34,500 nt of DNA from Myxococcota bacterium (GTDB lineage: Bacteria > Myxococcota > JACRCW01). Below the pieces are notes generated by a model. It had not been told where the DNA came from and ran no database searches. It was given only the letters and a program-made list of their open reading frames with translations. Every line of letters starts with the position of its first letter. Position 1 is the stretch's first letter. The position numbers and the translations under genes are program-made. The stretch is from contig JBFMGU010000107.1 in NCBI GenBank assembly GCA_040752415.1, positions 1-34,500 of the forward strand, given 5' to 3'. Positions 471 through 30,591 of this stretch are shown piece after piece.

Positions 471-523
471 CGTCGGAACGCGATGATCGGGCGGCCGTTT
501 TTTGGTCCTCCCACCGCCGTCAT

Positions 524-532
524 TGCTAGCGT
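524..532 (+). promoter_or_regulatory. Putative extended -10 element (TG-c-TAGCGT), possibly a leaderless promoter for the giant TPR gene
   Basis: TGcTAGCGT ends 8 nt before ATG 541; no Shine-Dalgarno before that ATG. Confidence 0.35.
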
Positions 533-540
533 CCCGCCGA

Positions 541-3500: not shown

Positions 3501-6500
3501 CCTGGTGGCCCTGGAGCTGCCGTCGGTGGATGTGGCGGCGCTGGACGACGAGCTCCTGGCGAGCTGGCCAGCGCATGAGCCCGCGTTGGCGCGTCGGACC
3601 CGTCGGGAAGCACACGCCAATCCCGGCGCCGCCGCCGACGACGCGCTGGCGGTGGTGGATGCGCTGGCCAAGCGTGATGCCGCCCTGGTGGAACGACTGG
3701 AGTGGCTCCGGTTTGCGCAGGAGAACGCCGCGCTCGCCGAGCAGTCCGAGAACGAGATCAAGATCATCGAGCAGATGCTGGAGCTCGCTCGTCGTGAACC
3801 GGCCACCGCGCAGCAACACGGCATGGACCGGCGCGGTCTCGTGCTCCGACTGGCCGCGCTGTACGAGAAGGCCGGCAACGCGCTGGAGGCCGTGCGGGTC
3901 CTGAGCCACGCCGAAGCGCTCGAGTGCCCGCCCGCTGAGCGCGCCCTGGTCTTCCGACGGATCGCGCTCCTCGAGGACCAGAAGCTCTCGCGGCCGGACC
4001 GTGCGCTGGAGGCGCTGCAACACGCCTTCCGCGCGGACCCCGACGACGACGAGACGGTCCGGCTGCTCATGCGCACGCTGGACGCACAGCACCGCTACCG
4101 CGAGCTGGCCACCCTGCACGCGCAACGCGCCGAGCGCGGCACAGGAACCGCACGCGTGGCCCATCTCGTCGCGGAGGGCGAGCTGTGGGCGCGGAAACTG
4201 GGTGAACCCCGTCGAGCGGTGCTGTGCTGGCGGAAGGCGCTGCGCCTGGCGCCCTACTCCGACGCGCCACTCAAACACCTCCAGGACCTGCACCGCAGCC
4301 GCTCCCCCGCCGCCATGGTGCGCACGTACCTGATGGCCGCGCGTCTTCGCGGCATGCCGGAAGCGGCGCCGCTGCTCGAGGAGGGCGGCGCCATGCTCGC
4401 GGGGTTGATGGACCGGCCCCGGATGGCCACCGTGGTGTTCCGTGCCGCGGCGTCGGGAAGTCCGCCGTCGTCGTCAGCGTTGCGCGCGCTGGCCGAGGTG
4501 TACCGCGCCCTCTCCCGACCGGAGGACGCGCAGGCTGCGTTGCGTGACCTGGTGGCCGCGGCTCCCGACGCGCGTTCACGGGCGGGAGCGCGGGTGGCGC
4601 GGGCGGAGATCCTTGCTGCGCTGCATCGCTGGGAAGACGCGTGGGATGAGCTGAAGGCTGCTTTGGGTGAGCAGCCGCAGATGGTGTCCGCGCTGTCTCT
4701 CGCCGTCGAGGCCACATCCCGACTGGGACTGGTGGCGGACTACGAGCGACTCTCACGTCAACGTCTGCTGCACGTGCAGGACAGCCACCAGGTTGCGGAA
4801 GGAGCCGTGGCCGCGGGGCGGGAATTGATCCGCATGATGGACCTGCCCGCGGCGCTGCGCATGGCGCGGATGGCTGTGGAGGCGGAGGCAGACAACGACG
4901 ACGGGTGGCGCCTCCTGCTGGACGCTTCCGCGCAGCTCTCCGACGCGGTCAGCGAAGCGGAGGCACTGGGCACGCTGTCGCGCATCTGGGAGTCGCGGGA
5001 TCCCGAGGCTGCCGCGGGGTTCCTCGGTCGTCTCGCCGTGCTGCGACTGCGGAGCGGCAAGCGTGATGACGCCGTCATGGCGCTGCGTGACGCCCTGCAC
5101 CGCGACCCGGTTGCCGCGGCCAAGGCCCTGCAGTCCGCGTGGGATGCCGGGCTGGATGTCCCGAGTGAGATCGTCGTCGACGCGGCCGAGGCGCTGCGCG
5201 CGCGTTCGCTCTCGCAAGCGGCGTTCGTCCTCGTGGGGCGCGCACCGGACCGACGCAATCCCCGCCTGGCCCGCTTGATGCTGGAGCTGGGCGAAACGAC
5301 GCTCTCCGCCGAGGAGCGGGCCGACCTGCAACTGCTCGCCGTGGCGGACATGGAGGCCGGAGAAGCGCGCGCGTCCGTCCTCGACGAGGCCGCGCAGTTC
5401 TTCTGGGAATCCGGCGAGAAGAAGCGCGCCATCGCGGCTGCCGAGCAGGCGGTGCAGGCGCGTGCCACCGTCGAGCGCGCCGGCCGGGCCTTTGTGTGGG
5501 CGGTCTCCGACCGGGACTGGCCTGTCGTCGAGCGACTGGCGGCGCAGGCGCCGGCGGAGTCCATTGCGGACGTGGGCACCGAGCTGGCCGCCGCGGGCGA
5601 CCTGCACCTGCTTCCCGACGTTGTCCTCGAGCGCTGGTGCGAGATGCATCCCACGCCGATGGTGGCCTTGCAGGAGCGGGCACGTCGGGCCACGCAGCGC
5701 GGTGATGCGGACGGGGTGAAGCGCGCCCTCACGACGATCCTCGAAACCGCGCGCGGCACACCCGAGGGCGACGAGGCGGCGCGAAAGCTCGCGACCATGT
5801 CCGCCAGGGCCGGCGATCACGAAGCCGCGGTCACGACGTCAACCGCGATCCACGCCCCCACCGCGCAGGACCTGCTCGACCGGGCGGACTGGCTCTCCGC
5901 GCTGGAGCGCTGGGATGAAGAGCTCGCGCTCGTCGAGAAACTGCTGAAGCGGACCGCCGAGGTGGACGAGAGCGCGTTGTGCGAGCGGGCCGTGGAGCTG
6001 GCGCGGGATTACCTGGAGGAGCCGGCGCGTGGCGTGGCGCCGTGTCGTCGTTGGTTGGAGTTGCAGCCGGAGTCACGGTTGGCGCGCGCCGCATTGGTGG
6101 AGCTGCTGGAGGCCGCGGGAAACCAGGCCGACGCCGCGCGCGAGGTGAGCGCATGGGCCGCGCGCCAGAAGGGCGTGGAGGCCAACGCGTTGTGGCGTCG
6201 GGCGACGGAGCTGGCGCGCGACAGTGGTGATGTTTCGCTCTACGTCAGCGTGGCGAAGCGCGCGCACGAGGTCCTGCAGGAGCCCGGCAGCCACGCCGCA
6301 CTGACCGAGGCGCTGGCAGGCGCTGGCAACGTCGACGCCGTCGCAGCGCTGGCGATGGAGCGGGCCGAGACGTCGGGTGAGCGCGCGCACTGGGAGGAAG
6401 CGGCGCGTGAGCTGCAGAAGATTGGCCAGCATGACCGCGCCGCCGACGCGTGGCTGCGCGCACATCCGGACCTGGCGCCGGCTCCCGTCGAGGAGGAGGT

Positions 6501-9500
6501 TCGCCAGGCGCTGGCACGTGCGGGTCGTCGCGCCGCGCTCGCGGACCGCGTCTACAACGCGCTGGACGCCCACCCCACCGACGTGGCGCTGCGACACCGC
6601 TTCCTGACCCTTGCGTCCCGTCGTCAACCTGAACGCATCGTCCGCGCCGTCCTGGACCTGGCGCGCCTGGAGCCGTCCGCGAACCGCAGCGCGCAGGCCG
6701 CATTGGCCGCTCTCCACGTTGGGCGCGTGGCCGACGCGCGGATGTACAGCGACGAAGCGCGAGGACGTGGAGCACCGAAAGCGTTCCTTGCCCAGGTGTC
6801 GGTGGCCTTGAAGCCGGGCACGTGGCGCGGAGCGCGCGGTGGTGCCGTGGCGCCGGGCTGGTTGGACCAGGGGTGGCTGCGCGGCGGCGTGCTCCCGGCC
6901 ACCGTCGACGTGGCGGCGCGGCCCGCGTGGGTGCTGCGCGCATTGGAGCGCCGGGCCACGGAGGAGGAGCAGTGGACGCTGGCCGCCGCGGCGCTCTCGG
7001 AGCGTGTGCTGCGTGGTGAGCATTTCACTGAGGAGGACCTGGGGAAGCGTCCGTGGCTGGGACGCCCGGAGCTCGTCGACACGCTGCAGACCCTGGCGCG
7101 CTATGCCCCGGAGGCGGCGGAGGCGGCGTGCAACCTGGCGCAGCAATCCGGTCCGGAAGCGCTGGCCGCGGTGGCACGATCCTGGGCCGAGTCCGCCCGT
7201 TCCGACGCCGCCGCGGCGCAGGCGTGGGACCGGGTGGCCGCCGCGTGCGCGGAGCTCCTCGACGCCGATGGTCAGCGCCAGGCGCTTGAGCGGGCGCAGG
7301 CACGGTTGGCCACGGCTCGTCGGGCGAGAGAGCTCCTGCAGACTGCGCAGGCCTCGCGCGACGTCGACGCCCAGGAAAGCCTCCTCCGCAGCCTGGCGCA
7401 GCTGGAGCCCCGCAACGCCGCGCATTGGCACCTGGAGCGCGCGCACCTGCTCATCAACCTGGACCAGATGGGCCCCGCGGTGGAGGCCATCCGCGCCGCT
7501 GGCCCCGAGGCCGAGCTGCCTGCGTCGGCCTGGGAGACCGTGTTGCGCGGTGCGGTCCTCCATCACGACGAGGAGGTCCAGCTCGCGGCGCTTGAGGCGC
7601 TGGTGAATGGACCCAACGAGCCGCTCGCGCTGGCGGCGCTCCACGGGAAGGCGGGGCGATGGCCGCAGGCGCTGAAATGGACCGAGGTTGCCGCCGAGGA
7701 AGAAGCCAGCATCGACGCCGTGGATTGGATGCGGCTCGAGGCTGCGCAGGCCTCTGGCGACGTGGCGTGGTCTCTCCGCTTGCTGGCCGGGCTGGCGCAG
7801 CGTGGCAGCGAGCTCGCCCGTGACCAGCTCCTCGTCCTCGCCGACGGAGCGGAAGATGCCGAGCTTGCGCTGCGGTGCCTGACGCAGGCCGACGGAGGCG
7901 ACGTCTCCAGCGCCCTGGCCCGCGCCGACGCAGCTCGTCGTGGCGAGGACGTGCGTGGCCTTGCGGAGGCCTTGCGTGACGCACGGGCGCGCGGTGTGGA
8001 GCCGTCCGCCGAAGCCCTGCGCGAGGAAGCGGAAGCCTGGTTGGACGCCGAGGAGGACGCGTTGGCCGCGGAAGCCGCGCTGCTCCTTGCACGCCAGGAC
8101 GCGAACGAGTGGTCCTGGGCCCAGGAGCTCGCGAACGACGTCGGTGGAAACACCGCGATCACCTGCGCCGACGCGTGGACGCAGTCCCAGCCCGCCGACG
8201 GACGCGCGTGGCGCGCGCGACAGAAGGCGCATGCGGACGTCCACGGCCCCGCCGGTGAGGCAGACGTGCTGGAGGCGTGGGCCAACGCGTCGGGTGATCC
8301 CGCGATCATGCTGGAAGCTTCGGACGCGCTCCGTCACGCCGAGGAGAACGCGCGCTCCCTGAAGCTGCTGCGGCGGGTGGCGCAGTGCGGTCAGCGGGCT
8401 CTCGAGGACATTGCGCGGGCTCGCCTGGCGGAACGTGCTGCAACCCTGGGAGCCCAACCCGGCGCGCTCGACGAGATCCTGGCGTTGATCAGCGGTGCAC
8501 CCTCGGACCTGGACCTCGCCCGTCGGGCGTGCGCGATCAGCGAGGAGCTGGGAGAGACCGCGCAGGCGGAAGCAGCGTGGGAGGTCCTGGCGCGGCACGG
8601 CACCGGTGAGGAGCAGGCGCGCGCGTTGATGCGGGTGGCGGACATTGCGCACGGGCGTGGTGACCGTTCCCAGGAACGCGCCTGGCTCCGCGTGCTGCTC
8701 CGACGAGAACCGCGCAGTGTCCAGGTGCACCAGCGGCTTGCGGAGCTGGAAGACGGCGCCCAATCACTCTCGCACCACGCGGCGGTGGCGGCGTTGTCGG
8801 AGCAGCGTGTGGAGGCACTGCGCGCGTTGCGTCGTCGTGCAACGGAGCTGGGCGCGGATGATTGGACGGCGTGGGCGGAAGGCGCTCTCGTCGGAGCGGC
8901 GAAGACGTTGGATGTGCACAGCCCACTGGCCGAGGCCCGGGCGCGCGCCGAGGAGCGCACGTGGGGACTTGCGGGTGCGGCGCGAAGCTGGGCGGCCGCG
9001 GCGGAAAGGAGCCCCGCGGCGGCAGAGGCTCTCGTCGAGCGCGCGGTGTCCGCGGCAAACCCGGAGGTCCACGCGCTGCAGTCCGCGTTGTTCCGACGAG
9101 GAGCAAGCGGGTTGGCCATTGGCCTGTGGATGCAGGCGGAACGGGAGTGGCGCCGCTCCACGGACGCGGACGCCGCCGTCGACGCCTGGCGTGCCGCGGA
9201 GGCCTACGGCCTGGACGTGGCGCCCTCCCCCGAGCTGGCCATCGTCCTGTCCGCGGCGTCGGGAAATCGCGCGGCGCGTGAGGTGGTGCTGGCCCGCGTG
9301 GTGCGTGATCACGCCAAGCCCGCTCTCCGCGCCGACGCCGCGCGCGCGCTGGGCGTCTCCGCATCACGCCCGCAGGACGCCGCACGCTGGTGGAAGACCG
9401 CGTACGAGCTGGGCGGACGCATCGAGGATGCACGACGCGCCGTGGAGGCCATGCACCGGACCGGGCAGCTCGGCGGCGAGGCGGAGCTCGTCGAGAAGGT

Positions 9501-12500
9501 TGGGCGGTCCCTGGGCCATGCTCCGGATGCCTCCGCACGCCAGTGGCTCATGGACGTGCTGCACGACCTCGCCGCCGCCACCGACGATCTTCCGCTGATG
9601 ACCTGCGTGCAGGCGTACCGGCAACCGCCGCGCACACCGGGCGAAGGCGACGCGCTGGGAGCACTGGAGCGTGACGCCGCGGAGCACGGTTTCCCCGCCA
9701 GTGCGCTCATGGGCCTCGTCTCCGCCGCCCGCGCCTCCCGCGAGCACGACCGACTCATCCGCTACCTCGAGACCTCACTCGCGCACGGGGAAGCGCGCCC
9801 CGGTCCCGCCCACCTGGAGCTGGCGGAGCTGCTCTCCTCGCCGGGGACGCTGAATCCCACCCGCGCGCTGCATCACGCCGAGAAGGCCTGTCAGCTGATG
9901 CCCACGGACCTGACGGCCGCGCGACTGCGTCTGCGCATGGGCCGCACGGTGCGGGACCCCAAGCGGCTGTGCGCGGCGCTGGTGCACGCGTCCCACCTGA
10001 GCGACGCCGAGGACACCATCCAGCTCACCCTCGAGGCCGCGGAGGTGATGGCCTCGCAGCTGGATCGTCCGCGGGATGCCCTGGCGCTGCTCCGCTCCCT
10101 GCGCGTCGACGATCCCACGATGGCGGAGCGCGTGTTTGACGCATCCATGCGCTATGCCCAGGACGCCGGCGACCCCGCGGGTGTGGCCGGGATGCTGGAG
10201 ACGCGCGCCGCCGGTGAATCCGACCCCGAGGCCCAGCTCGCGCGCGTGCGACAGGCCGCCGAGGCGTGGGTGAGCGCCGGTGAGGTGCAGCGCGCCGAGC
10301 AACTGCTCATCAAGACCGCGCGCGCGTCCCAGGCGGCGTGCACGTTCGTCGTCGAGACGGCGGTGGGATTGCGCAAGCCGGTGTTCGCGGTGGCGGCCCT
10401 CCGTGCACGGTTCACCACCGCGAACGTCGAGGAACGGCGAGAGCTGACGCATGCCTGGCTGGACCGCTTCTCGTCGCTGGAAGAGGACAAGGAGCCGCGC
10501 GCGGCAACGCGTGAGCTTGTCGAGCTGGTGCTGGCGGGCGACCCCGACGACATCATCTGCCAGTGGTGGCTCGCCGAGGACGCGCAGGCGGAGCATCGCT
10601 GGGAGGACGCGGCGGAACACTGGCGCGCGCTGGCCGAGCTCTCCACGCGTGAAGAGGTGCCCACGCACGTTGCGCAGTCGCTCCACACCGCCGGCGTGGC
10701 CGCCCTGGCCCGCAGCGACGTCATGGAGGAGGCGGAGCGCCTGGCCGCTGCGCAACTGGAGGCGAACCCTGCGGATCGCAGCGCGCTGGAAATCATGCTC
10801 GCTGCGGCCATGGGGCGTGCGGATGCCGCGCAGGTGGCGTCGTTGCTGCTCCGACTGGCGAGCCAGACCACCTCTCGCGAGGAAGCCGCCTGGGTGCTGC
10901 GTGAAGCGGCGGACTGGCTCAGCGGACCTCTCAATGACCCCGCGGGCGCCGCCGACGCATTGCGCAGCGCGGGCGCGTTCAAGCCCCTCTCCCCGTCGGA
11001 GAATGAGCGCCTCACCGAGCTTGCGCGTCGTGCGGGCGACACGGATGCGGAGCTGGAGGCGCTGCGCAAGTTGACCGCGGAGGATGGTCCCCAGACCGGT
11101 GCGCGCTTCCTCCGTCTCGCCGAGCTGCTGCGCGACCGCGCCCGCGACCCCGACGAGGAAATCACCGCGCTTCACCGCGCCCTGGCCTTCCCCGACGTGG
11201 CCGCATCCGCCGCCGCGCGCCTGGCCGAGCTGGCGTCGTCGGAGACGAGTCTTCTCCCCTGGCTCCTCGAGGCCGCGCCGCCCGCGTCGTCCCGCACCGC
11301 CGCGTGGAGTCGCGCCCTGACCCGGGTTGCCGCCGCCGAGGGGAACGCGGAAGTGGCCGGTGACGCCGCGCTGTGGCTCGCGGAACATGGCGAGTCTTCC
11401 GAGTGGGCCGTGGCGGCGCGCTGGCTGGCGAAGACGGAGCGTTCCGCGGATTCCGCGCGCGCGTACCAGAAGGCCGCGGAGAACGACGAGACCCAGCGCG
11501 CGACCTTCCTCACCGACGCCGTGGCTCAGTGGGAGCGCGCCAACGATCTCTCCGCCGCCGACGGCGCTCGCCTCGCGCTCCTCGAGCACGACCCGGGCAA
11601 CGTGGCCACGTTCGAGGCGCTGGAGCGTCGTTTCCGTCGGTCCGGGAAGCTGGAACAGCTCGCGGCACTCGCGCGCAAGGTGGCCATGGCGCAGCAGGAT
11701 GCCGGGAGCCGCGCGGGGCTGTTGGAACGGGCGGCCATCCTGATGCGCGACGGCACCGGCGACGAGAGCGGCGCCCTCCAGGCCTTCAGCGATTCCTACG
11801 CGGCGGACACCTCGCGTGTGAGCTGCGCGCTTGCCGTCTCCGACCTCCTCTTCCGTCGTGGCGACCTGGTGGAGGCGGGCCGTTGGCTGGAGCGCGTGCC
11901 CAGCGAGGTGGACCTCTCCGTCGTCAACATCTCCGCCGCGGAGCTGGCGTACCGTCGTGGCGCCGCGCGCGAGGCCGCCGGTGGCGACGGACGGGAGGAC
12001 TTCCGTCACGCCCTGGAGCTCAACCGCAATCACACCGTGGCTCGCGACGCGTTGGTGACGGCGTGCCAACGTCACGGTGATCCCCTGGGCGCCGCCAAGG
12101 CCCTGGCCACCGACGCGCACGAGCCGGACCCCGCCGTCGAGCCCGCCGCCTACGCGCGCTGGATCCTGGAGCAGGGCCGCTCCCTCACGAATGCTGGATT
12201 CCCCGCCGCGTCGACGTCGCTGCTGGAGGAGGCCTTCCATCGCCTGCCCGGCAGCGTGGAGCTGGGAAGCGCCCTGGTGGCGGCCACGCGTGACGAGGAG
12301 CCCGCTCGCGCGGCGCAGGTGCTGATGACGCTCGCTCGCACGGCGCCGGCGGGTCGTCGACGTGCCACGCTGTTCCTCGATGCCGTGGACGCGTGGCGTG
12401 ATGCTGGTCGTGCTGCCGACGCCGCGCGCGCCGCGGTGGCAGCCCACCAGGAGACCCCCGCGGACCTCTCCGTGCTCTGGGAAGCGCTCTCATCGGCCGC

Positions 12501-13917
12501 CGCCGCTGAGGATGACATCCTGATCCGCGACCTGGTGCGGGAGCTCCACGCGCTGGACCGCAAGCCGCTGCTGACCCCGGAGCTGCATCTCTCCGTCGCG
12601 CGCGCGTTGCGGCAGGACACCAAGGCGGAAGGCGCCACCCTGCTCTTCCACGCCGAGCGCGCGCTCGAGGCCGGTGATGACTGGCAGGTGCGCCTGCTCG
12701 CCGTGGAAGGTGCGCGCCGTGCGCCCGACCCCGAGGCGTTGCTCCGCCATGTCGACGCCGCCCTCCCCCTGGCGCCGGATGCACGCATGGCCAGCGCCCT
12801 GGCCGCCGAGGCGGGACGCGTGGCGTTGGACCTGCTGAAGGACAACGAGCGCGCCGTCAACATCGTCTACCGCGCGCACACGCTGGCGCCGCAGGACAAC
12901 ACGCTGAAGGCCATGCTCGCCGAGGCGTACTCCCGCGACCCCTTGCTCGCCGACCACGCGCTCATGGCCTCCACGCACCTCCTCGACGCTGACGCGGAGC
13001 TCCCCGGTGCGTTCCTGTGGATTGCGCGGGCGCGTGCGCACCAGAAGGACCTGCGTCGTGCGGCGCTGAGCGGGGAAGCGCACCGGTTGCTGGGCGGAAA
13101 GGCCACCCTCCCGGAGACCGTGCCCTGGCATGATCCTCGTCGTGGCGCGGACCGTGCGCTGGAGCTCGCCGTCGACGCGTCGTGGGCCGCGCCCGAGGGC
13201 TACAACCACGCGCTCGCCTCCCTCTACGCGCAGCTCTCCGGGGCGGTGCACCAGCTTCGCACGGTGACCTCCGTGGAGGCGCGTCCGCTGGCCGCCGACG
13301 AGGCGCGCGCGCTGGTGGGCGACGTGAGGTTCGCGCGGAGCATGGTGGGCTTCACGTTGCCCGTCGTGGCGGCGTCCGATCCTGGCGCGCACATCGTGGG
13401 GACCACGGCGCCGCAGCTGGCGGTGGGGCCAGACGTGTTCACGGCGCCGGAGGCCGTGCGTCGCGCGGTGCTCACGCTGGGGTTTGCCGCCGTGAACTGG
13501 GGCCTGGAGCCCGCGCTGGTCATGGGCGTTCCCGACGTCACGCGGCTCCGTCAGGCCGTCATGGCGGCCCTGGGCGTGGGCCATGAGAACCACCCGCGGC
13601 TCAAGGCGGAGTTGCAGCAGCTGCAGCGCGCGCTCCGGGGTCGTCCGCTGGAGGCGGCGCGCAACCTGGCGCAGGACCTGGTGAACCTGCCCGTCGAGAT
13701 GGATGCCCAGTGGCTCGCGCAGAGCCGCACGCTCCTGGCGCGCCTGGCGTTCCTGGCCGCGGGCAACCTGACCCATGCCATGGAGGCGCTGGCCGTCATG
13801 GAAGGTGGGCTCGCGCCGTCGCCACAGTCCGCGGAGGCGCTGCGCCTGATGCGCTGGGTCTGCCTGGGCGACGGCGTGGACGGTCGACGCCGGCTGGGGC
13901 TGGAGGAATACCGGTAG
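541..13917 (+). CDS. Giant tetratricopeptide-repeat (TPR) protein (~4458 aa), myxobacterial AgmK-like architecture
   Basis: Uninterrupted 13.4-kb ORF with strong GC3 bias; many degenerate TPR units (e.g. PDRALEALQHAFRADPDDDETVRLL, EPRRAVLCWRKALRLAP); distinct non-TPR N-terminal (~250 aa) and C-terminal (~250 aa) regions. ATG 541 preferred over TTG 502. Confidence 0.88.
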   Translation: MDRSAPSSGRPAGGQPPDRPRRLGFALRFAEGKALLLAKDLPVGDPGTTAADVSLDELALEVPNVRFPLDVTGGAERFQTRRLVVRKAALRASTGAIRALLQQGLVREGWSDLRVQLSAPQLELEAGLTRDGARRGRVLLRLAALPSPPSALDVVVTHAWVLGDAATTSLDAATAVLDALARGESAAGPLVRRLDVTRLAVRELLNSHGWKTPDFSSLREIQLVVETDGVRVVAASETPPTVEDALHQDRLARVLAASSLLVGWSAARGQMAQLRGLLDRVAVHPHALALVADLLMGDPLGREEALAALDEAISRHGETVDLLVARARLDRDDPKHWKRVLDWAQQQGDTALAHGAALAWAEGLPVERAEEALEAYRAASLARPDSGAVALGLAQVSVQAEQWAEAVRAARLAIQLGLSPVDEQVASRCLGLARMAMGDAPGGRRALLRALRHGEDTATLAALGQLSEADGKHGDAVRYRLRAAHAATDDVARAAEIAEAARLTHERLGDAVASVALWQQALALHRSTSWRAAAAKAAWAAGDAELTAQWALEDGGRAPESPELARLAGLALTRMGGREEETLLLLKRARTQDVTADVEVEEATALVRARMGDASGLLALEEKKARTAPAGPQRAEAIAALARQHLDDDALVVPATRLLLDAAQEEPTPARLDEAVAAIQALPVEDATGVIAQLWQESGVHHPVLTNPERARTLAGLWWTHNAQAARPLVTELRSRGALTATDWRAMAASARSQGVVDGEQLALEALAEDDTLNTDEALRLAEVLSSADETDAALKVLVPVALRDGGPAAERAAQLAEEVGQIDTALSVLTAAEQKAEGSAALAWARRARAAAALGERFEEAVAAARRAAALGTGDDADALEETLEVAGDLTALSDVLWERAKTELDVDRAVRAARLEMASGRAASGTVERLRESMEVGLVPNAALWRVLAEAAGSAHDGPTRGQALRATFDDETLPDRERLEAAESLVALELPSVDVAALDDELLASWPAHEPALARRTRREAHANPGAAADDALAVVDALAKRDAALVERLEWLRFAQENAALAEQSENEIKIIEQMLELARREPATAQQHGMDRRGLVLRLAALYEKAGNALEAVRVLSHAEALECPPAERALVFRRIALLEDQKLSRPDRALEALQHAFRADPDDDETVRLLMRTLDAQHRYRELATLHAQRAERGTGTARVAHLVAEGELWARKLGEPRRAVLCWRKALRLAPYSDAPLKHLQDLHRSRSPAAMVRTYLMAARLRGMPEAAPLLEEGGAMLAGLMDRPRMATVVFRAAASGSPPSSSALRALAEVYRALSRPEDAQAALRDLVAAAPDARSRAGARVARAEILAALHRWEDAWDELKAALGEQPQMVSALSLAVEATSRLGLVADYERLSRQRLLHVQDSHQVAEGAVAAGRELIRMMDLPAALRMARMAVEAEADNDDGWRLLLDASAQLSDAVSEAEALGTLSRIWESRDPEAAAGFLGRLAVLRLRSGKRDDAVMALRDALHRDPVAAAKALQSAWDAGLDVPSEIVVDAAEALRARSLSQAAFVLVGRAPDRRNPRLARLMLELGETTLSAEERADLQLLAVADMEAGEARASVLDEAAQFFWESGEKKRAIAAAEQAVQARATVERAGRAFVWAVSDRDWPVVERLAAQAPAESIADVGTELAAAGDLHLLPDVVLERWCEMHPTPMVALQERARRATQRGDADGVKRALTTILETARGTPEGDEAARKLATMSARAGDHEAAVTTSTAIHAPTAQDLLDRADWLSALERWDEELALVEKLLKRTAEVDESALCERAVELARDYLEEPARGVAPCRRWLELQPESRLARAALVELLEAAGNQADAAREVSAWAARQKGVEANALWRRATELARDSGDVSLYVSVAKRAHEVLQEPGSHAALTEALAGAGNVDAVAALAMERAETSGERAHWEEAARELQKIGQHDRAADAWLRAHPDLAPAPVEEEVRQALARAGRRAALADRVYNALDAHPTDVALRHRFLTLASRRQPERIVRAVLDLARLEPSANRSAQAALAALHVGRVADARMYSDEARGRGAPKAFLAQVSVALKPGTWRGARGGAVAPGWLDQGWLRGGVLPATVDVAARPAWVLRALERRATEEEQWTLAAAALSERVLRGEHFTEEDLGKRPWLGRPELVDTLQTLARYAPEAAEAACNLAQQSGPEALAAVARSWAESARSDAAAAQAWDRVAAACAELLDADGQRQALERAQARLATARRARELLQTAQASRDVDAQESLLRSLAQLEPRNAAHWHLERAHLLINLDQMGPAVEAIRAAGPEAELPASAWETVLRGAVLHHDEEVQLAALEALVNGPNEPLALAALHGKAGRWPQALKWTEVAAEEEASIDAVDWMRLEAAQASGDVAWSLRLLAGLAQRGSELARDQLLVLADGAEDAELALRCLTQADGGDVSSALARADAARRGEDVRGLAEALRDARARGVEPSAEALREEAEAWLDAEEDALAAEAALLLARQDANEWSWAQELANDVGGNTAITCADAWTQSQPADGRAWRARQKAHADVHGPAGEADVLEAWANASGDPAIMLEASDALRHAEENARSLKLLRRVAQCGQRALEDIARARLAERAATLGAQPGALDEILALISGAPSDLDLARRACAISEELGETAQAEAAWEVLARHGTGEEQARALMRVADIAHGRGDRSQERAWLRVLLRREPRSVQVHQRLAELEDGAQSLSHHAAVAALSEQRVEALRALRRRATELGADDWTAWAEGALVGAAKTLDVHSPLAEARARAEERTWGLAGAARSWAAAAERSPAAAEALVERAVSAANPEVHALQSALFRRGASGLAIGLWMQAEREWRRSTDADAAVDAWRAAEAYGLDVAPSPELAIVLSAASGNRAAREVVLARVVRDHAKPALRADAARALGVSASRPQDAARWWKTAYELGGRIEDARRAVEAMHRTGQLGGEAELVEKVGRSLGHAPDASARQWLMDVLHDLAAATDDLPLMTCVQAYRQPPRTPGEGDALGALERDAAEHGFPASALMGLVSAARASREHDRLIRYLETSLAHGEARPGPAHLELAELLSSPGTLNPTRALHHAEKACQLMPTDLTAARLRLRMGRTVRDPKRLCAALVHASHLSDAEDTIQLTLEAAEVMASQLDRPRDALALLRSLRVDDPTMAERVFDASMRYAQDAGDPAGVAGMLETRAAGESDPEAQLARVRQAAEAWVSAGEVQRAEQLLIKTARASQAACTFVVETAVGLRKPVFAVAALRARFTTANVEERRELTHAWLDRFSSLEEDKEPRAATRELVELVLAGDPDDIICQWWLAEDAQAEHRWEDAAEHWRALAELSTREEVPTHVAQSLHTAGVAALARSDVMEEAERLAAAQLEANPADRSALEIMLAAAMGRADAAQVASLLLRLASQTTSREEAAWVLREAADWLSGPLNDPAGAADALRSAGAFKPLSPSENERLTELARRAGDTDAELEALRKLTAEDGPQTGARFLRLAELLRDRARDPDEEITALHRALAFPDVAASAAARLAELASSETSLLPWLLEAAPPASSRTAAWSRALTRVAAAEGNAEVAGDAALWLAEHGESSEWAVAARWLAKTERSADSARAYQKAAENDETQRATFLTDAVAQWERANDLSAADGARLALLEHDPGNVATFEALERRFRRSGKLEQLAALARKVAMAQQDAGSRAGLLERAAILMRDGTGDESGALQAFSDSYAADTSRVSCALAVSDLLFRRGDLVEAGRWLERVPSEVDLSVVNISAAELAYRRGAAREAAGGDGREDFRHALELNRNHTVARDALVTACQRHGDPLGAAKALATDAHEPDPAVEPAAYARWILEQGRSLTNAGFPAASTSLLEEAFHRLPGSVELGSALVAATRDEEPARAAQVLMTLARTAPAGRRRATLFLDAVDAWRDAGRAADAARAAVAAHQETPADLSVLWEALSSAAAAEDDILIRDLVRELHALDRKPLLTPELHLSVARALRQDTKAEGATLLFHAERALEAGDDWQVRLLAVEGARRAPDPEALLRHVDAALPLAPDARMASALAAEAGRVALDLLKDNERAVNIVYRAHTLAPQDNTLKAMLAEAYSRDPLLADHALMASTHLLDADAELPGAFLWIARARAHQKDLRRAALSGEAHRLLGGKATLPETVPWHDPRRGADRALELAVDASWAAPEGYNHALASLYAQLSGAVHQLRTVTSVEARPLAADEARALVGDVRFARSMVGFTLPVVAASDPGAHIVGTTAPQLAVGPDVFTAPEAVRRAVLTLGFAAVNWGLEPALVMGVPDVTRLRQAVMAALGVGHENHPRLKAELQQLQRALRGRPLEAARNLAQDLVNLPVEMDAQWLAQSRTLLARLAFLAAGNLTHAMEALAVMEGGLAPSPQSAEALRLMRWVCLGDGVDGRRRLGLEEYR
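13870..13917 (+). repeat. Copy A1: last 15 codons + stop of the TPR gene (DGVDGRRRLGLEEYR*), repeated at 14573-14620
   Basis: Ungapped alignment to 14573-14620: 34/48 nt and 9/15 aa identical, stop at the same position. Confidence 0.8.
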
Positions 13918-13950
13918 AGGACACACCGCTGCCGCGCTAGAACGCAAGCC

Positions 13951-14562
13951 ATGGAGTCCGCGGGTCGCAAGCTGACCTACGAGGAGTACCTCGCGCTCGA
14001 GGAGGCTCTCGGCACCAAGCACGAGTTTCTCGACGGTCAGGTGCTGGACATGGCCGGCGGTTCCCCTCAGCACGCCGCGTTGTCGGCGCGCGTGACGGCT
14101 GCATTGTCACGCAACCTCGGAGCTGGGCCGTGCGTCGCCTTCAGCTCCGATCTCAAGCTCTTCGTCGCGGCGCGCAACCGCGCCACCTTTGCCGACGCTG
14201 TCGTCGTGTGCGGACCGCTGGTGCGGGCGGAGCATGACCGCAACGCGGTGACCAATCCCACGCTGATCGTGGAGGTGTTTTCCGACGCCACCGAGGCGGA
14301 GGATCGGGGCGAGAAGTTCGCGGGGTACGGCACGCTCCCGTCCTTCCGGGAGTATCTGCTGGTCGACCAGCATGACCCGTGCGTCGAGGTCTTCCGACGG
14401 AATGACGACGGCACCTGGACGCTGCAACGCCACGGCCCCGGCGACGTCGTTCGTTTGACCTCGGTGCCGGCCCAGTTCCCGGTGGATGAGCTGTATGCCG
14501 GGCTGGAGTTGGAGCCCCGGGTCCGCAAGCCCCGCCTGGTTCCGCACGCCGGTGAGGGCTGA
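13951..14562 (+). CDS. Uma2 family (DUF820) PD-(D/E)XK putative endonuclease
   Basis: Typical motifs: LTYEEYLALE, KHEFLDGQVLDMAGGSPQH, NPTLIVEVFS, DRGEKF..Y..LPSFREYLLVDQ, VEVFRR. Confidence 0.92.
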   Translation: MESAGRKLTYEEYLALEEALGTKHEFLDGQVLDMAGGSPQHAALSARVTAALSRNLGAGPCVAFSSDLKLFVAARNRATFADAVVVCGPLVRAEHDRNAVTNPTLIVEVFSDATEAEDRGEKFAGYGTLPSFREYLLVDQHDPCVEVFRRNDDGTWTLQRHGPGDVVRLTSVPAQFPVDELYAGLELEPRVRKPRLVPHAGEG

Positions 14563-14572
14563 CCCCCGCCGT

Positions 14573-14620
14573 CACGACGTGGAAACCCGCCGCGAGCTGC
14601 GGCTGGAGGAGTACCGCTGA
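14573..14620 (+). pseudogene. Copy A2: displaced, diverged 3'-end fragment of the TPR gene (HDVETRRELRLEEYR*)
   Basis: Intergenic, begins 10 nt after the Uma2 stop; matches the TPR C-terminus with synonymous changes (cga/cgc, gaa/gag, cgg/cgc, tag/tga). Confidence 0.75.
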
Positions 14621-14628
14621 CCTGCGGC

Positions 14629-14657
14629 TTGCCTGGGCCGGGAGAAGCCACTAGCAG
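14629..14657 (+). promoter_or_regulatory. Possible sigma70-like promoter (TTGCCT-17-TAGCAG) for the GT-C gene
   Basis: Exact 17-nt spacing, but the -10 match is weak. Confidence 0.25.
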
Positions 14658-14711
14658 CGGGGGCGGCGGAGCTTGCGCGTCCCGTGCCCTCCGCCCCAAG
14701 GTTCGCCCGCC

Positions 14712-16208
14712 GTGACGACGACCACCACCGACCCGACCGCGCAGTCCCCCAGCGAGCCGGGAGCCCCTCCGGCGACGACACCCCCGCCCCCGCCCGACGC
14801 TGGCGCACCGTTCGTGCCGCCCATCATGCCCCTGCCCCGTCGGACGGCGCGCGACCGCTGGCAGGACCTGCGCGCCGAGGGCCCGCTGATGATGCTGAGC
14901 TGGGCCGGCTTCCTCAGCCTCCTGGTGGCCGCGGTCATCCAACGCTGGTGGTTCATCTTCCGCATGCACGACCCGAAGAACTTCGTCTGGTCGGACATGG
15001 CGGGCTACGTGGACCGCGGCTGGCGACTGGCCGCGCCCAACATCACGCTCAACCGCTTTGACACGTTCTATCCGCCGGGCACGCACATCCTGATGGCGCC
15101 CCTCTTCCGTCTCGCCGGGAGCAAGGAAAAGGGGATGGAATACAACCAGTGGCTGTGGTGGGTGCTGGCGTTCGTCACCGTGTGGGCCGTGGGGTTCATT
15201 GCGCTGCGACTCTTCCGCCATCCGCTCGCCGGCGCGCTCGCCATGCTGGGGCTGATGCTGCACTGGCCCTTCACCATCTTCACCGGTTTCTTCATGAGCG
15301 AGAGCCCGTTTGCGTGCTTCATGGCGCTCTCGTTGCTCGTCGGGCTCATTGCGTATGACATGGATCCCGCGCGGCCGTGGCGTCGGGCGGGCGTGTACGC
15401 GGTGGCGGGTCTGATTGCCGGGATGGCCGCCACCATCCGCCCGCAGTTCGCCATTGGCGCCATGTTCATCGGCGTGCCGCTGCTCTCGCTGCGCTTCCCG
15501 TTCGTGCGCATCCGGGAGGCGGTGGCGCTGGCGTTGATGTTCATCCTCCCGTGCGTGGGCGCCATGCGGCTCAACAGCCACGCGGCGGGCATCAAGATGG
15601 GCATGAGCGGGAATGCTGGCTTCAACTTCTACCAGGGGCATTGCGACGTGGTTCACGTCGAGACGCACGAGAAGGGCGGCGGGAGCTGGTACGCGTTTGC
15701 GGCGCCGGTGCGCATCCAGCGCGTGAACAACGAGGGCAAGCCGGAAAAGAAGGTGGTCATCAAGGGCCACATGGCCTGGGAGAACGACTACTTCTTCGAC
15801 GAAGGCTTCAAGTGCATCAGGGAGGAAGGCTGGAAGCACCTGGAGCGCATCTACACCAACGTGGAAGACCTGTTCGCGCCCGCGGATCCCTGGCCGCCCA
15901 ACTCCGGTCGCTTCGCGAAGATCAGCAACTGGGCGAACAAGTCCTATTCGCACGGGCTGTTGTTCCTGCTGCCCTTCGTGGTGTTCCTGGCACGGTACCG
16001 TCGGCCGGAGCGGTGGTTGCTCATCCAGCTGGCCACGGTGCTGCCCGTGGGCTTCCTGTTCTACGGCGACAGCCGCTACCGCGTTCCGTACGACATGTTC
16101 GGGTTCATCATGCTCGCTGGCGTCATCGTGGCCATTCTCGGGATGCGTCGGGATGAGCGATGGGTGCCGAGCGTGGGATGGCGGAAACGCGCGCGTTCCG
16201 TTGGCTGA
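14712..16208 (+). CDS. Polytopic membrane protein, GT-C fold glycosyltransferase-like (ArnT/PMT/GT39-like)
   Basis: Multiple TM helices; SDMAGY after the first TM, FYPPG, ESPF, IRPQ, large periplasmic loop, C-terminal GDSRYRVP. Start uncertain (TTG 14673, GTG 14712, ATG 14826). Confidence 0.75.
   Translation: MTTTTTDPTAQSPSEPGAPPATTPPPPPDAGAPFVPPIMPLPRRTARDRWQDLRAEGPLMMLSWAGFLSLLVAAVIQRWWFIFRMHDPKNFVWSDMAGYVDRGWRLAAPNITLNRFDTFYPPGTHILMAPLFRLAGSKEKGMEYNQWLWWVLAFVTVWAVGFIALRLFRHPLAGALAMLGLMLHWPFTIFTGFFMSESPFACFMALSLLVGLIAYDMDPARPWRRAGVYAVAGLIAGMAATIRPQFAIGAMFIGVPLLSLRFPFVRIREAVALALMFILPCVGAMRLNSHAAGIKMGMSGNAGFNFYQGHCDVVHVETHEKGGGSWYAFAAPVRIQRVNNEGKPEKKVVIKGHMAWENDYFFDEGFKCIREEGWKHLERIYTNVEDLFAPADPWPPNSGRFAKISNWANKSYSHGLLFLLPFVVFLARYRRPERWLLIQLATVLPVGFLFYGDSRYRVPYDMFGFIMLAGVIVAILGMRRDERWVPSVGWRKRARSVG
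16146..16196 (+). repeat. Copy B1: near-terminal 17 codons of the GT-C gene (RRDERWVPSVGWRKRAR), repeated at 20337-20387
   Basis: Ungapped: 41/51 nt (32/36 over the first 12 codons) and 14/17 aa identical. Confidence 0.88.
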
Positions 16209-17252: not shown

Positions 17253-18053
17253 ATGGCGTGGGGAACGCTCATCTCCGTTGGTTTGCTGGTGGCCTTGAAG
17301 GCGAGTGAGCCAGCCCCCCCGGCGGTGGGCGCCTCTCCAATGGCCGCCACGAAGTGCGTTGAGCATCGCGAACGCATCGGTCACGTCGGTGGGATCCTCA
17401 GCGGTGTCGGTGCGGCGTTGGGCGTCAACTTACTGCTGGCGGCGTCGGCGTTGGCGGGTGGGTGGGTCGCCTGGACGACGCTGATTGCCTGGGAGGCCGG
17501 CATCTCCCCCGCCAGAATGGGGCCGGCGACGTTGGCATGGGCGTCCTTCCTGGGTTTCGGCTTCGCGCTGCTCAGCGCCGCGGCGTTCGTCCTCCTCTCC
17601 GCGCCGTTGATGCTCGCCAACGTCTTCGGGGGCGACTTGGCGGGATGGCTGGTGGGAACGCAGCTGCGCCGGCCGAGCCCACGCAGAGGAGTAGCGGCAT
17701 TCGCGGCTGTGGTTCCCGAGCTCCTCGTCGTCGCGCCGCTGGCGGTGGCGCCCGCAGTCCCCTTCCTCGCGGTTTCGGCAGGCGCGCTGGTTGCCGCCCC
17801 GGCACTGGCCCGGATGGTTCCGCCCCCGGGCTGGTGGGGCTTGGCCGTCCTCATCTGGTTGAGTCTGTACGCGGCCTTCTTCGGGACGATCGTGTTGCTG
17901 TCATCGTCCTACTACCTCGTCTACGGCTTCGTTGTTGCCGTCGTCGCAGCGGCTCTTCTGACCGTGCTGCGGGCAGGCAGCTGGTTCGCGCGCTACTGGG
18001 CCTACGTGCGTCTCCGCGACGTCCTTCCCGGGAAAGGAGGCCCCTGTCCATGA
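17253..18053 (+). CDS. Hypothetical integral membrane protein
   Basis: Signal-like N-terminus and several long hydrophobic segments; its stop overlaps the next start (ATGA, 18050-18053). Start uncertain (TTG 17199 or ATG 17253). Confidence 0.7.
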   Translation: MAWGTLISVGLLVALKASEPAPPAVGASPMAATKCVEHRERIGHVGGILSGVGAALGVNLLLAASALAGGWVAWTTLIAWEAGISPARMGPATLAWASFLGFGFALLSAAAFVLLSAPLMLANVFGGDLAGWLVGTQLRRPSPRRGVAAFAAVVPELLVVAPLAVAPAVPFLAVSAGALVAAPALARMVPPPGWWGLAVLIWLSLYAAFFGTIVLLSSSYYLVYGFVVAVVAAALLTVLRAGSWFARYWAYVRLRDVLPGKGGPCP

Positions 18054-24442: not shown

Positions 24443-24443
24443 G

Positions 24444-26196: not shown

Positions 26197-26271
26197 CAGC
26201 GTCAGATCCTTTCCCGCTGCCGCCCGTTCACACCCAGTCACGGATCCAACGTCCACCCCGTGAGGTCATCC

Positions 26272-30591
<4,320 letters not shown>

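What the first reader, a model, noticed from the sequence alone, without database searches (positions are those of the whole stretch)
13870..14620. Uma2 gene flanked by two versions of the giant TPR gene's C-terminus
Seen: DGVDGRRRLGLEEYR* (13870-13917) vs HDVETRRELRLEEYR* (14573-14620), 34/48 nt, ungapped, stop aligned, 703 nt apart, with only Uma2 between. The downstream copy uses C/G-ending codons (cgc, gag) where the active end has cga and gaa. Inference: the downstream copy is the ancestral end and Uma2 arrived with a replacement end. Because Uma2 proteins are predicted PD-(D/E)XK nucleases and often highly multicopy, a role in their own spread is conceivable but untested. The usual PD position here reads FADAVVVC.
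Basis: partly seen in the sequence, partly recalled or inferred. Interest (0 to 1): 0.75.

Follow-up and report, generated by a model that had tools for sequence, protein, structure and literature searches.

The report
Uma2 gene insertion with displaced gene end
A small nuclease gene (Uma2) sits inside the tail of a giant bacterial gene, which still has a working last 15 codons while a decaying second copy of them lies just past Uma2; this is a real insertion scar, but nothing shows that Uma2 moved itself.

Summary
Window 13870-13917 and 14573-14620 match at 34 of 48 bases, ungapped, with the stops aligned. This is far beyond chance: the codon-aware exact P is 5.6e-9, and the next best match in the window is 28 of 48. 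Only an intact Uma2 gene (13951-14562) lies between the copies. Three distant homologues of the giant protein share the invariant 'R..LGLE' end but not 'EEYR*'. Both copies therefore derive from this lineage's own gene end. The downstream copy carries radical changes at conserved positions, so it is a non-coding relic.

Uma2 was therefore inserted into the last 16 codons of the giant gene, and the gene's end was kept by duplication or replacement. Which copy is native cannot be settled, because no close relative exists in any collection I could reach.

The pattern is not general. Of 21 plasmid-borne Uma2 genes, 1 is followed by a copy of the upstream gene's end, and a plain tandem duplication explains that case. 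A recent Thermus Uma2 insertion, seen as filled versus empty site, has no duplication at all.

My best reading is passive recombinational insertion. Self-homing by Uma2 remains possible (about 0.1).

The parts
502..13917 (+). Giant Ala/Leu/Arg-rich helical-repeat gene. The ORF is 4471 aa from TTG 502. The database's gene call for this contig is 4458 aa, so it starts at 541. The stop is TAG at 13915-13917.
   Evidence: There are three full-length homologues, P0002-P0004 (38-42% identity over the last 1000 aa). Only sub-threshold TPR/ARM Pfam matches were found.
13870..13917 (+). Functional end of the giant gene (DGVDGRRRLGLEEYR*). It is the upstream copy of the 48-nt repeat.
   Evidence: It keeps the family-invariant R..LGLE and the consensus G387, R393 and G395.
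13918..13950 (+). 33-nt leader between the giant gene's stop and the Uma2 start. It has no stop codon and is in the same frame as both genes.
13951..14562 (+). Uma2/DUF820 gene, 203 aa, intact, predicted PD-(D/E)XK-type nuclease.
   Evidence: Pfam 102.7 bits. D82, E108 and K122 are invariant in 24 homologues. PDB 9y1l matches by sequence at E 3e-12. The predicted model has pLDDT 90.3 and matches 6okh, 9y1l, 3ot2 and 1wdj. It matches PADLOC PDC-S03. GC is 68% and GC3 85%, the same as the giant gene.
14563..14572 (+). 10-nt trailer between the Uma2 stop and the relic.
14573..14620 (+). Displaced, non-coding relic of the giant gene's last 15 codons plus stop (HDVETRRELRLEEYR*). It is in the +1 frame relative to Uma2.
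   Evidence: There is no Rfam match, no terminator and no unusual fold here.
14621..16208 (+). Original downstream intergenic DNA, then a 511-aa ORF (TTG 14673 or GTG 14712) with no family match. It is not syntenic with the giant gene in the one related locus.

Best explanation
A 655-nt piece carrying only a solo Uma2 nuclease gene (33-nt leader, ORF, 10-nt trailer) was inserted 48 nt before the stop codon of the giant gene. The event left two copies of the gene's last 15 codons plus stop. The upstream copy stayed in frame and in use. The downstream copy was cut off from the gene and has been decaying as non-coding DNA. The lineage tolerated the insertion because the conserved '...R..LGLE' end was preserved.

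I think the insertion was passive and carried out by host recombination, with Uma2 as cargo: an accessory gene of the solo-toxin or defence-candidate type. Two routes fit about equally.
(a) One-sided homologous recombination (homology-facilitated illegitimate recombination). DNA from a relative that already carried Uma2 behind its copy of the gene recombined homologously inside the giant gene and joined illegitimately at position -48. On this route the upstream end is imported and the relic is native. I lean slightly to this route.
(b) Capture of a Uma2 fragment at a staggered break, with fill-in producing a 48-bp target duplication.

Shown: the repeat, its derivation from this gene's own end, the decay of the downstream copy, and the intactness of Uma2. 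Inferred: the insertion event itself, its route, and Uma2's passive role.
For: - The repeat is real and ends exactly at the stop codon on the right and 10 nt after the Uma2 stop on the left.
- Both copies share the lineage-specific 'V' and 'EEYR*'. All three homologues end differently after the invariant LGLE.
- The relic has radical replacements at conserved positions and differences spread evenly over codon positions.
- No second Uma2 or trace of one exists anywhere in the window, by tblastn, blastn and a profile search of all six frames.
- Between the repeat copies there is no transposase, no integrase and no terminal inverted repeat at the boundaries.
- The one related locus, L001, has a giant-gene homologue with neither Uma2 nor a copy of its own end downstream.
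- Uma2 genes are demonstrably gained as bare single-gene insertions. In Thermus thermophilus pAA1-1b, 540 nt (9-nt leader plus ORF) replace 11 nt between two operon genes. Of 20 matching Thermus plasmids, 19 lack this stretch. I aligned 2 of those 19: the flanks differ by 1 of 1226 and 0 of 1235 nt from one of them, and there is no duplication.
- The end duplication is not a family hallmark: 19 of 21 plasmid Uma2 genes have flanks at the null level.
- One-sided homologous plus illegitimate recombination, and displaced 3' regions, are documented in bacteria (passages of PMC5361080).
Against: - No empty-site allele of this locus could be found, so the insertion is inferred from one sequence.
- A 48-bp target duplication is much longer than any usual one.
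- Route (a) needs a donor that already had Uma2 behind the gene.
- The Thermus insertion is strikingly exact. It runs from just after the upstream stop codon to Uma2's own stop and supplies a new overlapping GTG start for the next gene. That precision could hint at a dedicated mechanism rather than random recombination.
- Uma2's catalytic residues are intact, so an active role cannot be excluded.
- In the Methylobacter plasmid the duplicated unit also starts exactly 15 codons plus stop before the upstream gene's end. I treat this as coincidence.
Confidence: 0.62

Rival explanations
1. Uma2 is a free-standing homing-type endonuclease gene. It cuts Uma2-less alleles near the end of the giant gene, and repair copies in Uma2 together with a cut-resistant replacement end, leaving the native end behind. 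This is what the mobile endonuclease ORFs of fungal mitochondria do.
For: - The layout matches the fungal cases: gene core, inserted C-terminus, endonuclease ORF, native C-terminus relic (passages of PMC3630166).
- Uma2 is in the same frame as the giant gene, as two of four Glomus cases are.
- The nuclease fold and conserved acidic and lysine residues are intact.
- The family is multicopy and patchy (passages of PMC1274311 and PMC9403480).
- A bare-ORF presence/absence polymorphism exists in Thermus.
Against: - This is a single case.
- Of 21 other Uma2 genes, 1 has a copy of the upstream gene's end behind it, and that case is a tandem duplication.
- The recent Thermus insertion has no duplicated or replaced upstream end and no co-converted flank (0 to 1 differences in about 1.2 kb on each side).
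- No other copy of that Thermus gene lies on any plasmid in the collection.
- Uma2 is almost absent from phages, occurring in 1 of 50,697 records.
- The closest Uma2 relative is only 69% identical, so there is no sign of recent spread.
- No paper found links Uma2 to mobility.
Confidence: 0.1
2. Uma2 was already behind the giant gene. A head-to-tail tandem duplication of the unit (last 48 nt of the gene, leader, Uma2, trailer) then occurred, and the second leader-Uma2-trailer was later deleted, leaving only the second copy of the gene end.
For: The first step is seen in nature. Methylobacter sp. YRD-M1 plasmid NZ_CP091425.1 has an 834-nt unit repeated head to tail at 82% identity. The unit starts 48 nt before the upstream gene's stop, so Uma2 #1 is followed by NAHDPVVEVFAHELS* and then Uma2 #2.
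Against: The similarity in the window ends exactly at the relic's stop codon (1/12 and 4/12 matches in the next two 12-mers). The deletion would therefore have had to start within a few bases of that codon and remove all of the second cassette. No trace of a second Uma2 remains. This reading also needs two events where one suffices.
Confidence: 0.07
3. The downstream 48 nt is not derived from the giant gene's end. It is either a chance match, or a leftover of another Uma2 gene's N-terminus, since Uma2 proteins begin '...TYEEYLAL' and the relic ends 'LEEYR'.
For: Uma2 codons 11-14 and the relic share 10 identical bases, GAGGAGTACC, within an 18/25 match (D5). 'YEEYLAL' is conserved in the family.
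Against: - 34/48 to the gene end against 18/25 to Uma2's 5' region.
- Matches of about 70% over 25 nt are common in this GC-rich DNA (one search lists several).
- Codon-aware P is 5.6e-9.
- The stops are aligned.
- There is no Uma2-like sequence after the relic.
Confidence: 0.02

Closest known systems
Mobile endonuclease ORFs (mORFs) of fungal mitochondria that create 'gene hybrids' with a duplicated C-terminus: Allomyces macrogynus atp6; Glomus sp. atp6, atp9, cox2 and nad3. Source: passages of PMC3630166. The original Allomyces paper was seen only as that paper's reference 48.
   Same: The order of parts is the same: gene core, in-frame functional C-terminus, endonuclease ORF, displaced native C-terminus. 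The two C-termini are diverged (64-81% identity in Glomus; 71% here).
   Different: In those cases the ORFs are of established homing-endonuclease families, the endonuclease was shown to drive mobility, and the native end matches close relatives. Here the ORF is Uma2 with no known activity, the host is a bacterial chromosome, the duplicated piece is only 48 nt, and there is no relative to tell which end is native. The pattern does not recur at other Uma2 genes.
Homology-facilitated illegitimate recombination, and C-terminal displacement in Rhs / type VI effector loci. Source: passages of PMC5361080. Jackson 2009 and de Vries & Wackernagel 2002 were seen only in its reference list.
   Same: Incoming DNA is anchored by homology in a long conserved gene and joined illegitimately at the other end. 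It brings a new 3' end plus a small downstream gene and pushes the old 3' region downstream as an orphan.
   Different: No Rhs/YD or toxin domain is found in the giant protein. The end is conserved rather than variable among homologues. The displaced piece is 15 codons rather than a toxin domain. Uma2 is not a known immunity gene.
Uma2 / DUF820 / COG4636 family: solo predicted PD-(D/E)XK nucleases, expanded in cyanobacteria and Thermus.
   Same: The gene between the repeat copies is a full, typical member. Like others it stands alone, and it matches the PADLOC defence candidate PDC-S03.
   Different: The literature I could search describes copy-number expansion, a 'likely solo toxin' and cassettes of paralogues. 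It does not describe insertion scars or displaced gene ends.
Integrase-mediated integration into the 3' end of a gene, where the element carries a substitute end (tRNA genes; icd with e14 / phage 21). This comparison is recalled; only a search listing was seen.
   Same: A functional substitute end lies upstream and a displaced native end downstream, flanking the insert.
   Different: There is no integrase and no element body, only 655 nt carrying one nuclease gene. There is no identical core sequence either: the longest exact run within the repeat is 10 nt.

Membership tests
Uma2 / DUF820 (PF05685) | Match to the family profile above the curated cut-off | tested here: met
   102.7 bits against a cut-off of 27, E 2e-29, covering residues 11-173 and profile positions 2-165 of 172.
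Uma2 / DUF820 (PF05685) | Conserved acidic and lysine residues of the PD-(D/E)XK-type site | tested here: met
   D82, E108 and K122 are invariant in 24 homologues. 'AD' replaces 'PD' in 8 of 24, so it is a normal variant. The assignment of these residues as catalytic is recalled from family descriptions and was not assayed.
Uma2 / DUF820 (PF05685) | Restriction-endonuclease-like fold | tested here: met
   AlphaFold2 model with pLDDT 90.3 and pTM 0.85. Foldseek matches 6okh, 9y1l, 3ot2 (DUF820) and 1wdj at E 2e-11 to 1e-8, with target-normalised TM 0.72-0.81.
Uma2 / DUF820 (PF05685) | Nuclease activity | not testable with these tools
   No biochemical characterisation was found in the passages read. 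The solved structures are labelled uncharacterised or putative.
Homing endonuclease gene with C-terminal duplication (fungal mORF type) | Layout of gene core, functional end, endonuclease ORF, displaced end | tested here: met
Homing endonuclease gene with C-terminal duplication (fungal mORF type) | The displaced end matches insert-free relatives and the functional end is foreign | not testable with these tools
Homing endonuclease gene with C-terminal duplication (fungal mORF type) | The same architecture recurs at other insertions of the family | tested here: not met
   Of 21 plasmid Uma2 genes, 1 is followed by a copy of the upstream gene's end, and that is a tandem duplication. The Thermus filled/empty pair has none.
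Homing endonuclease gene with C-terminal duplication (fungal mORF type) | The endonuclease cleaves the insert-free allele | not testable with these tools
   This needs protein and substrate.
Transposon / insertion sequence | Transposase gene, terminal inverted repeats and a short exact target duplication | tested here: not met
   Only Uma2 lies between the repeat copies. No inverted repeat pairs the boundaries at 13918 and 14572. The repeat is 48 nt at 71% identity.
Integrase-borne element in the 3' end of a gene | Tyrosine or serine recombinase in the element, with identical att core | tested here: not met
   The insert is 655 nt with one Uma2 ORF. No recombinase domain appeared among the window ORFs scanned.
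Rhs/CDI-type C-terminal displacement | Polymorphic toxin core with a variable toxic C-terminus and an immunity gene | tested here: not met
   No Rhs/YD, CDI or toxin domain is found in the giant protein. The C-terminal 400 aa are conserved to the last 'LGLE' in all four family members.
Tandem duplication | A second copy of the whole unit, head to tail | tested here: not met
   No second Uma2 or fragment of one is found in the window. The feature is met in the Methylobacter plasmid.

The most novel reading that the evidence does not exclude
Uma2 genes are the bacterial-chromosome counterpart of free-standing homing endonuclease genes. They enter as bare ORFs at gene boundaries, as in the Thermus operon. 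When they land inside a gene's tail they bring or create a substitute end, as in this window. That would explain why the family is so multicopy and patchy.
Probability: 0.1. Interest if true: 0.8.

Novelty: new variant of a known kind. Interest (0 to 1): 0.4.

Why it matters
Uma2/DUF820 is among the most expanded uncharacterised nuclease families in cyanobacteria, Thermus and some myxobacteria-like genomes. Nobody knows what the proteins do or why there are so many copies.

A clean insertion scar (this window) and a clean filled/empty pair (Thermus pAA1-1b against 19 sister plasmids) give two concrete substrates on which to test whether a Uma2 protein cuts the site its own gene occupies. A positive result would define a new class of selfish nuclease gene in bacterial chromosomes. 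A negative result would leave the window as a textbook example of how an essential gene end survives an insertion by being duplicated.

Tried and rejected
Searches for close relatives of the giant gene:
- Protein word-index search of the C-terminal region at near lengths found only the window's own protein.
- The same search at shorter lengths found nothing among 8000 candidates.
- The exhaustive representative library found only three full-length homologues at 38-42% identity.
- A genome-contig scan with the single protein found none.
- A genome-contig scan with the 4-sequence alignment found one locus, L001. It has no downstream synteny, because a convergent SEC-C-motif gene starts 12 nt after the stop. 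An empty-site comparison was therefore impossible.

Context of the closest Uma2 relative (P0052, 69% identity): not retrievable with the tools at hand.

Function of the relic: no Rfam match, no terminator, and a fold z-score of -0.28. A structured or regulatory reading was rejected.

Compositional foreignness of Uma2 or of the active end: none was found. GC3 is 85% in both genes, and no shift occurs towards the gene's end.

Further filled/empty pairs: the searches for Roseomonas, Methylomonas, Planktothrix and Nostoc plasmids gave no clean empty site. Neither the source of the Thermus Uma2 copy nor further Thermus plasmid paralogues were found on plasmids.

Phages: Uma2 occurs in 1 of 50,697 records.

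Literature: one paper search failed on a syntax error and was not resent. 'uma2' plus 'endonuclease' found 25 papers, of which I read passages of 3. 'duf820' found 13 papers, seen as a listing only. Nothing I saw links the family to self-mobility or to displaced gene ends.

Full report
THE OBSERVATION

The window is 70% G+C. A giant ORF runs from 502 to 13917, which is 4471 codons. The database's own gene call for this contig is 4458 aa, so it starts at 541. The ORF ends ...WVCLGDGVDGRRRLGLEEYR-TAG. A 203-codon gene follows 33 nt later at 13951-14562, and it matches Pfam Uma2 (PF05685) at 102.7 bits, E 2e-29.

Ten nucleotides after that gene's stop, 14573-14620 reads HDVETRRELRLEEYR-TGA. It matches 13870-13917 at 34 of 48 positions, without gaps and with the stops aligned. 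The repeat finder reports the same pair independently (D2). On both sides the similarity stops abruptly: 4/12 in the 12-mer before the repeat and 1/12 in the one after it.

IS IT MORE THAN CHANCE?

Yes.
- Sliding the 48-mer over both strands of the window gives only itself and 14573 at 30 or more matches. The next best is 28.
- Using the window's own codon frequencies, the exact probability of 33 or more matches in the 45 sense bases is 5.6e-9. Among 9380 real in-frame 15-codon windows from the window's likely genes the maximum is 26.
- Nine of 15 residues are identical, P 2.5e-7.
- A control with the same geometry (200-nt blocks 612 nt apart, 222 positions along the window) peaks at score 20, inside the repetitive giant gene. 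The Uma2 flanks score 23.

WHAT THE TWO COPIES ARE

The exhaustive representative search with the last 1000 residues found three full-length homologues, P0002-P0004 (4227-4270 aa, 38-42% identity). All three align to within a few residues of their C-termini. They end ...EGLEARQRLGLEEAAGA...EGLEARGRLGLEKVEV and ...QALDARVTLGLESPPSQ. In the four-way alignment R391, L394, G395, L396 and E397 are invariant.

Both window copies share V388 and the tail 'EEYR-stop'. None of the homologues has either. The downstream segment is therefore a copy of this lineage's own gene end, not a convergent motif.

The upstream copy keeps G387, R393 and the invariant G395. The downstream copy has D, E and R at those positions and matches the majority of the homologues only at E389. 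The 14 differences fall 4, 4 and 6 on codon positions 1, 2 and 3 (hand count), which is the pattern of relaxed constraint.

The downstream copy lies in the +1 frame relative to Uma2, at the end of a stop-to-stop stretch with no evidence of use. It has no Rfam match, no terminator and no unusual fold. It is a relic.

WHAT FOLLOWS, AND WHAT DOES NOT

Removing 13870-14572 (703 nt) restores a single gene ending in the relic, followed by the present downstream DNA. Uma2 with its 33-nt leader and 10-nt trailer therefore behaves as a 655-nt insert flanked by two copies of the target's last 48 nt.

I could not settle this. No close relative of the giant gene exists in what I could search.
- One search found only the window's own protein.
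- One search found nothing among shorter proteins.
- One search found no locus.
- One search found one locus, L001, at 40% identity. Its gene is followed 12 nt later by a convergent gene, with no Uma2 and no copy of its own end.

By parsimony against the L001 codons, the relic's lineage carries about 6 changes, the active copy's about 4, and 4 are ambiguous. This hand count fits either an on-the-spot duplication followed by divergence or the import of a diverged end.

Three of 15 against 1 of 15 A/T-ending codons gives Fisher P 0.6, and the gene-wide rate is 14.8%. Nothing compositional marks Uma2 or the active end as foreign: GC3 is 85% in both genes.

THE UMA2 GENE

The gene is intact and typical.
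- D82, E108 and K122 are invariant among 24 relatives.
- The sequence matches PDB 9y1l at E 3e-12.
- An AlphaFold2 model (pLDDT 90.3) matches the DUF820 structures 6okh, 9y1l, 3ot2 and 1wdj.
- It also matches the PADLOC defence candidate PDC-S03.
- Its nearest relative is 69% identical and has the same length, including the C-terminal tail. The whole ORF is therefore Uma2's own.

The papers whose passages I read describe the family as follows:
- an expanded family of unknown function (PMC1274311; PMC9403480);
- a 'likely solo toxin' that forms cassettes of paralogues (PMC2701414).

I saw nothing on self-mobility in two searches. One search found 25 papers, of which I read passages of 3. One search found 13 papers, seen as a listing only.

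IS THE PATTERN GENERAL?

A tblastn of the window's Uma2 against 72,556 plasmids found 49 records, all below 40% identity. I fetched 19 loci chosen by hand for taxonomic spread. Obvious duplicates were skipped, and 30 records were left unexamined. The 19 loci hold 21 Uma2 genes.

I compared the 200 nt before each gene with the 200 nt after it. Nineteen of the 21 are at the level of shuffled controls. The other two are the tandem pair of Methylobacter sp. YRD-M1.

A protein-level version compared the last 30 residues of a co-oriented upstream gene with the three-frame translation of the 240 nt after Uma2. The window scores 42 against a null maximum of 35. Of the other 14 loci, 13 are at the null level. 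The Methylobacter locus scores 71.

In the Methylobacter plasmid an 834-nt unit is repeated head to tail at 82% identity (L023 6464-7297 and 7298-8120). The unit begins 48 nt, that is 15 codons plus stop, before the end of the upstream gene. Uma2 #1 is therefore followed by NAHDPVVEVFAHELS-stop, a copy of the upstream gene's NAHDSEVEVFAHELS-stop, and then by Uma2 #2. No third copy follows. That is an ordinary tandem duplication.

The same history in the window would need a later deletion starting exactly at the relic's stop codon. No trace of a second Uma2 remains there. I therefore rate that history low.

A DIRECT LOOK AT A UMA2 INSERTION

In Thermus thermophilus plasmid pAA1-1b, Uma2 lies between an aldehyde dehydrogenase gene and a fumarylacetoacetate hydrolase gene. 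Of 20 Thermus plasmids that match this stretch, 19 lack it. I aligned two of the 19, pAA2-20 and HB8 pTT27.

In both, the sequence after the dehydrogenase stop reads a 7-nt spacer and then the hydrolase ATG. In pAA1-1b, 540 nt (a 9-nt leader plus the Uma2 ORF) replace 11 nt (the spacer plus ATGC). The hydrolase gene gains a new GTG start that overlaps the Uma2 stop. The flanks differ from pAA2-20 by 1 of 1226 nt on the left and 0 of 1235 on the right.

Three points follow. Uma2 genes are gained as bare ORFs at gene boundaries. This gain was recent. It left no duplication, no replaced upstream end and no co-converted flank.

No source copy is present on plasmids. Four other attempts to find filled/empty pairs gave nothing clean. 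Uma2 is nearly absent from phages, occurring in 1 of 50,697 records.

HOW IT MOST LIKELY HAPPENED

I commit to a passive, recombination-made insertion with Uma2 as cargo (0.62). The insertion hit the conserved tail of the giant gene and survived only because a working copy of the tail was kept. Two routes fit.

(a) One-sided homologous recombination. DNA from a relative that already carried Uma2 just behind its copy of the gene, as Thermus shows can happen, was anchored inside the giant gene and joined illegitimately at position -48. The process and its orphaned 3' regions are described in passages of PMC5361080.

(b) Capture of a Uma2 fragment at a staggered break, with fill-in giving a 48-bp target duplication.

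I lean slightly to (a). It uses documented bacterial processes, and it does not require the full 29% divergence to have built up while a neutral 48-nt relic escaped deletion. The relic's radical changes show real decay in either case.

RIVAL READINGS
- Uma2-driven homing (0.10).
- Tandem duplication followed by deletion (0.07).
- Chance, or a leftover Uma2 N-terminus (0.02). Uma2 codons 11-14 and the relic share the 10 bases GAGGAGTACC, but that 18/25 match is at the noise level of this DNA.

COMPARISON WITH WHAT IS KNOWN

The layout is that of the fungal mitochondrial 'gene hybrids'. There a mobile endonuclease ORF sits between an inserted C-terminus and the displaced native one (PMC3630166 passages). 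It also recalls C-terminal displacement at Rhs and type VI loci.

Membership in either family fails on tested features. The pattern does not recur at other Uma2 genes, and the giant protein has no toxin or Rhs domain. The decisive features could not be tested: which end is native, and whether Uma2 cuts the empty site.

The window is therefore best filed as a new variant of a known kind of insertion scar. It has a one-in-ten chance of being the first sighting of a homing-type role for Uma2.

WHAT STAYED UNCHECKED
- The metagenome and viral contig collections, which were closed.
- The genomic context of the 69%-identical Uma2 relative.
- The 30 plasmid records that were not fetched.

Noticed in passing
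L003 7926-8465 (Thermus thermophilus pAA1-1b) versus L019 1227-1237 and L020 1227-1237: Recent presence/absence polymorphism of a Uma2 gene inside an aromatic-degradation operon. 540 nt (9-nt leader plus ORF) replace 11 nt, and the next gene gains a GTG start overlapping the Uma2 stop. Of 20 matching Thermus plasmids, 19 lack it. The flanks are nearly identical (1 of 1226 and 0 of 1235 differences).
   Followed up: yes
L023 6464-8120 (= L018 1238-2894; Methylobacter sp. YRD-M1 plasmid NZ_CP091425.1): Head-to-tail tandem duplication of an 834-nt unit (82% identity) that starts exactly 15 codons plus stop before the end of the upstream gene, the same 48 nt as in the window. Within it a 52-nt stretch upstream of both Uma2 copies is perfectly conserved although its surroundings have diverged.
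   Followed up: partly
L023 3141-3336 and 8108-8305: A 200-nt direct repeat (83% identity) brackets the roughly 5-kb block of four hypothetical genes plus the two Uma2 genes. It may mark the edges of a larger inserted or duplicated segment.
   Followed up: no
window 13915-13953: Uma2 is in the same reading frame as the giant gene, separated from it only by the TAG stop and 11 sense codons. A read-through of TAG would fuse the two proteins. The chance of a shared frame is one in three, so this may mean nothing.
   Followed up: no
window 13981-13990 and 14606-14615: Ten identical bases (GAGGAGTACC) are shared by Uma2 codons 11-14 ('YEEY' of the family's conserved N-terminal motif) and the relic's 'LEEY'. 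The active end differs by one base. This is possibly a microhomology, possibly chance.
   Followed up: partly
L008 1426-2004; L021 1432-2037; L012 369-1995; L005 123-1992: Other plasmid Uma2 genes sit inside or beside defence or mobile genes. One lies between hsdM and hsdS next to XisH/XisI (Euhalothece). One is inside a DUF1156 / type I restriction / DUF499 cluster (Planktothrix). One is directly after a GIY-YIG nuclease gene (Polaromonas). One is directly after an IS605 OrfB gene (Stanieria).
   Followed up: no
window 13653-13695 and 13755-13797: An internal 43-nt repeat at 72% identity, 102 nt apart, near the end of the giant gene. This is consistent with 34-residue helical repeats, although Pfam TPR matches are below threshold.
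   Followed up: no
L001 11174-12709: In the only related locus, the giant-gene homologue is followed 12 nt after its stop by a convergent 506-aa gene whose product appears to end in a SEC-C-like Cys-rich motif. The motif name is recalled and was read by eye from the reverse strand; no tool tested it. Downstream synteny with the window is absent.
   Followed up: partly
window 26260-30591: A 1443-aa bacterial alpha-2-macroglobulin-like protein (MG2, A2M, TED and receptor-binding domains). Nearby are an MlaD/ABC transporter pair (23342-25232, minus strand) and a di-haem cytochrome c peroxidase-like ORF (17462-19954).
   Followed up: no
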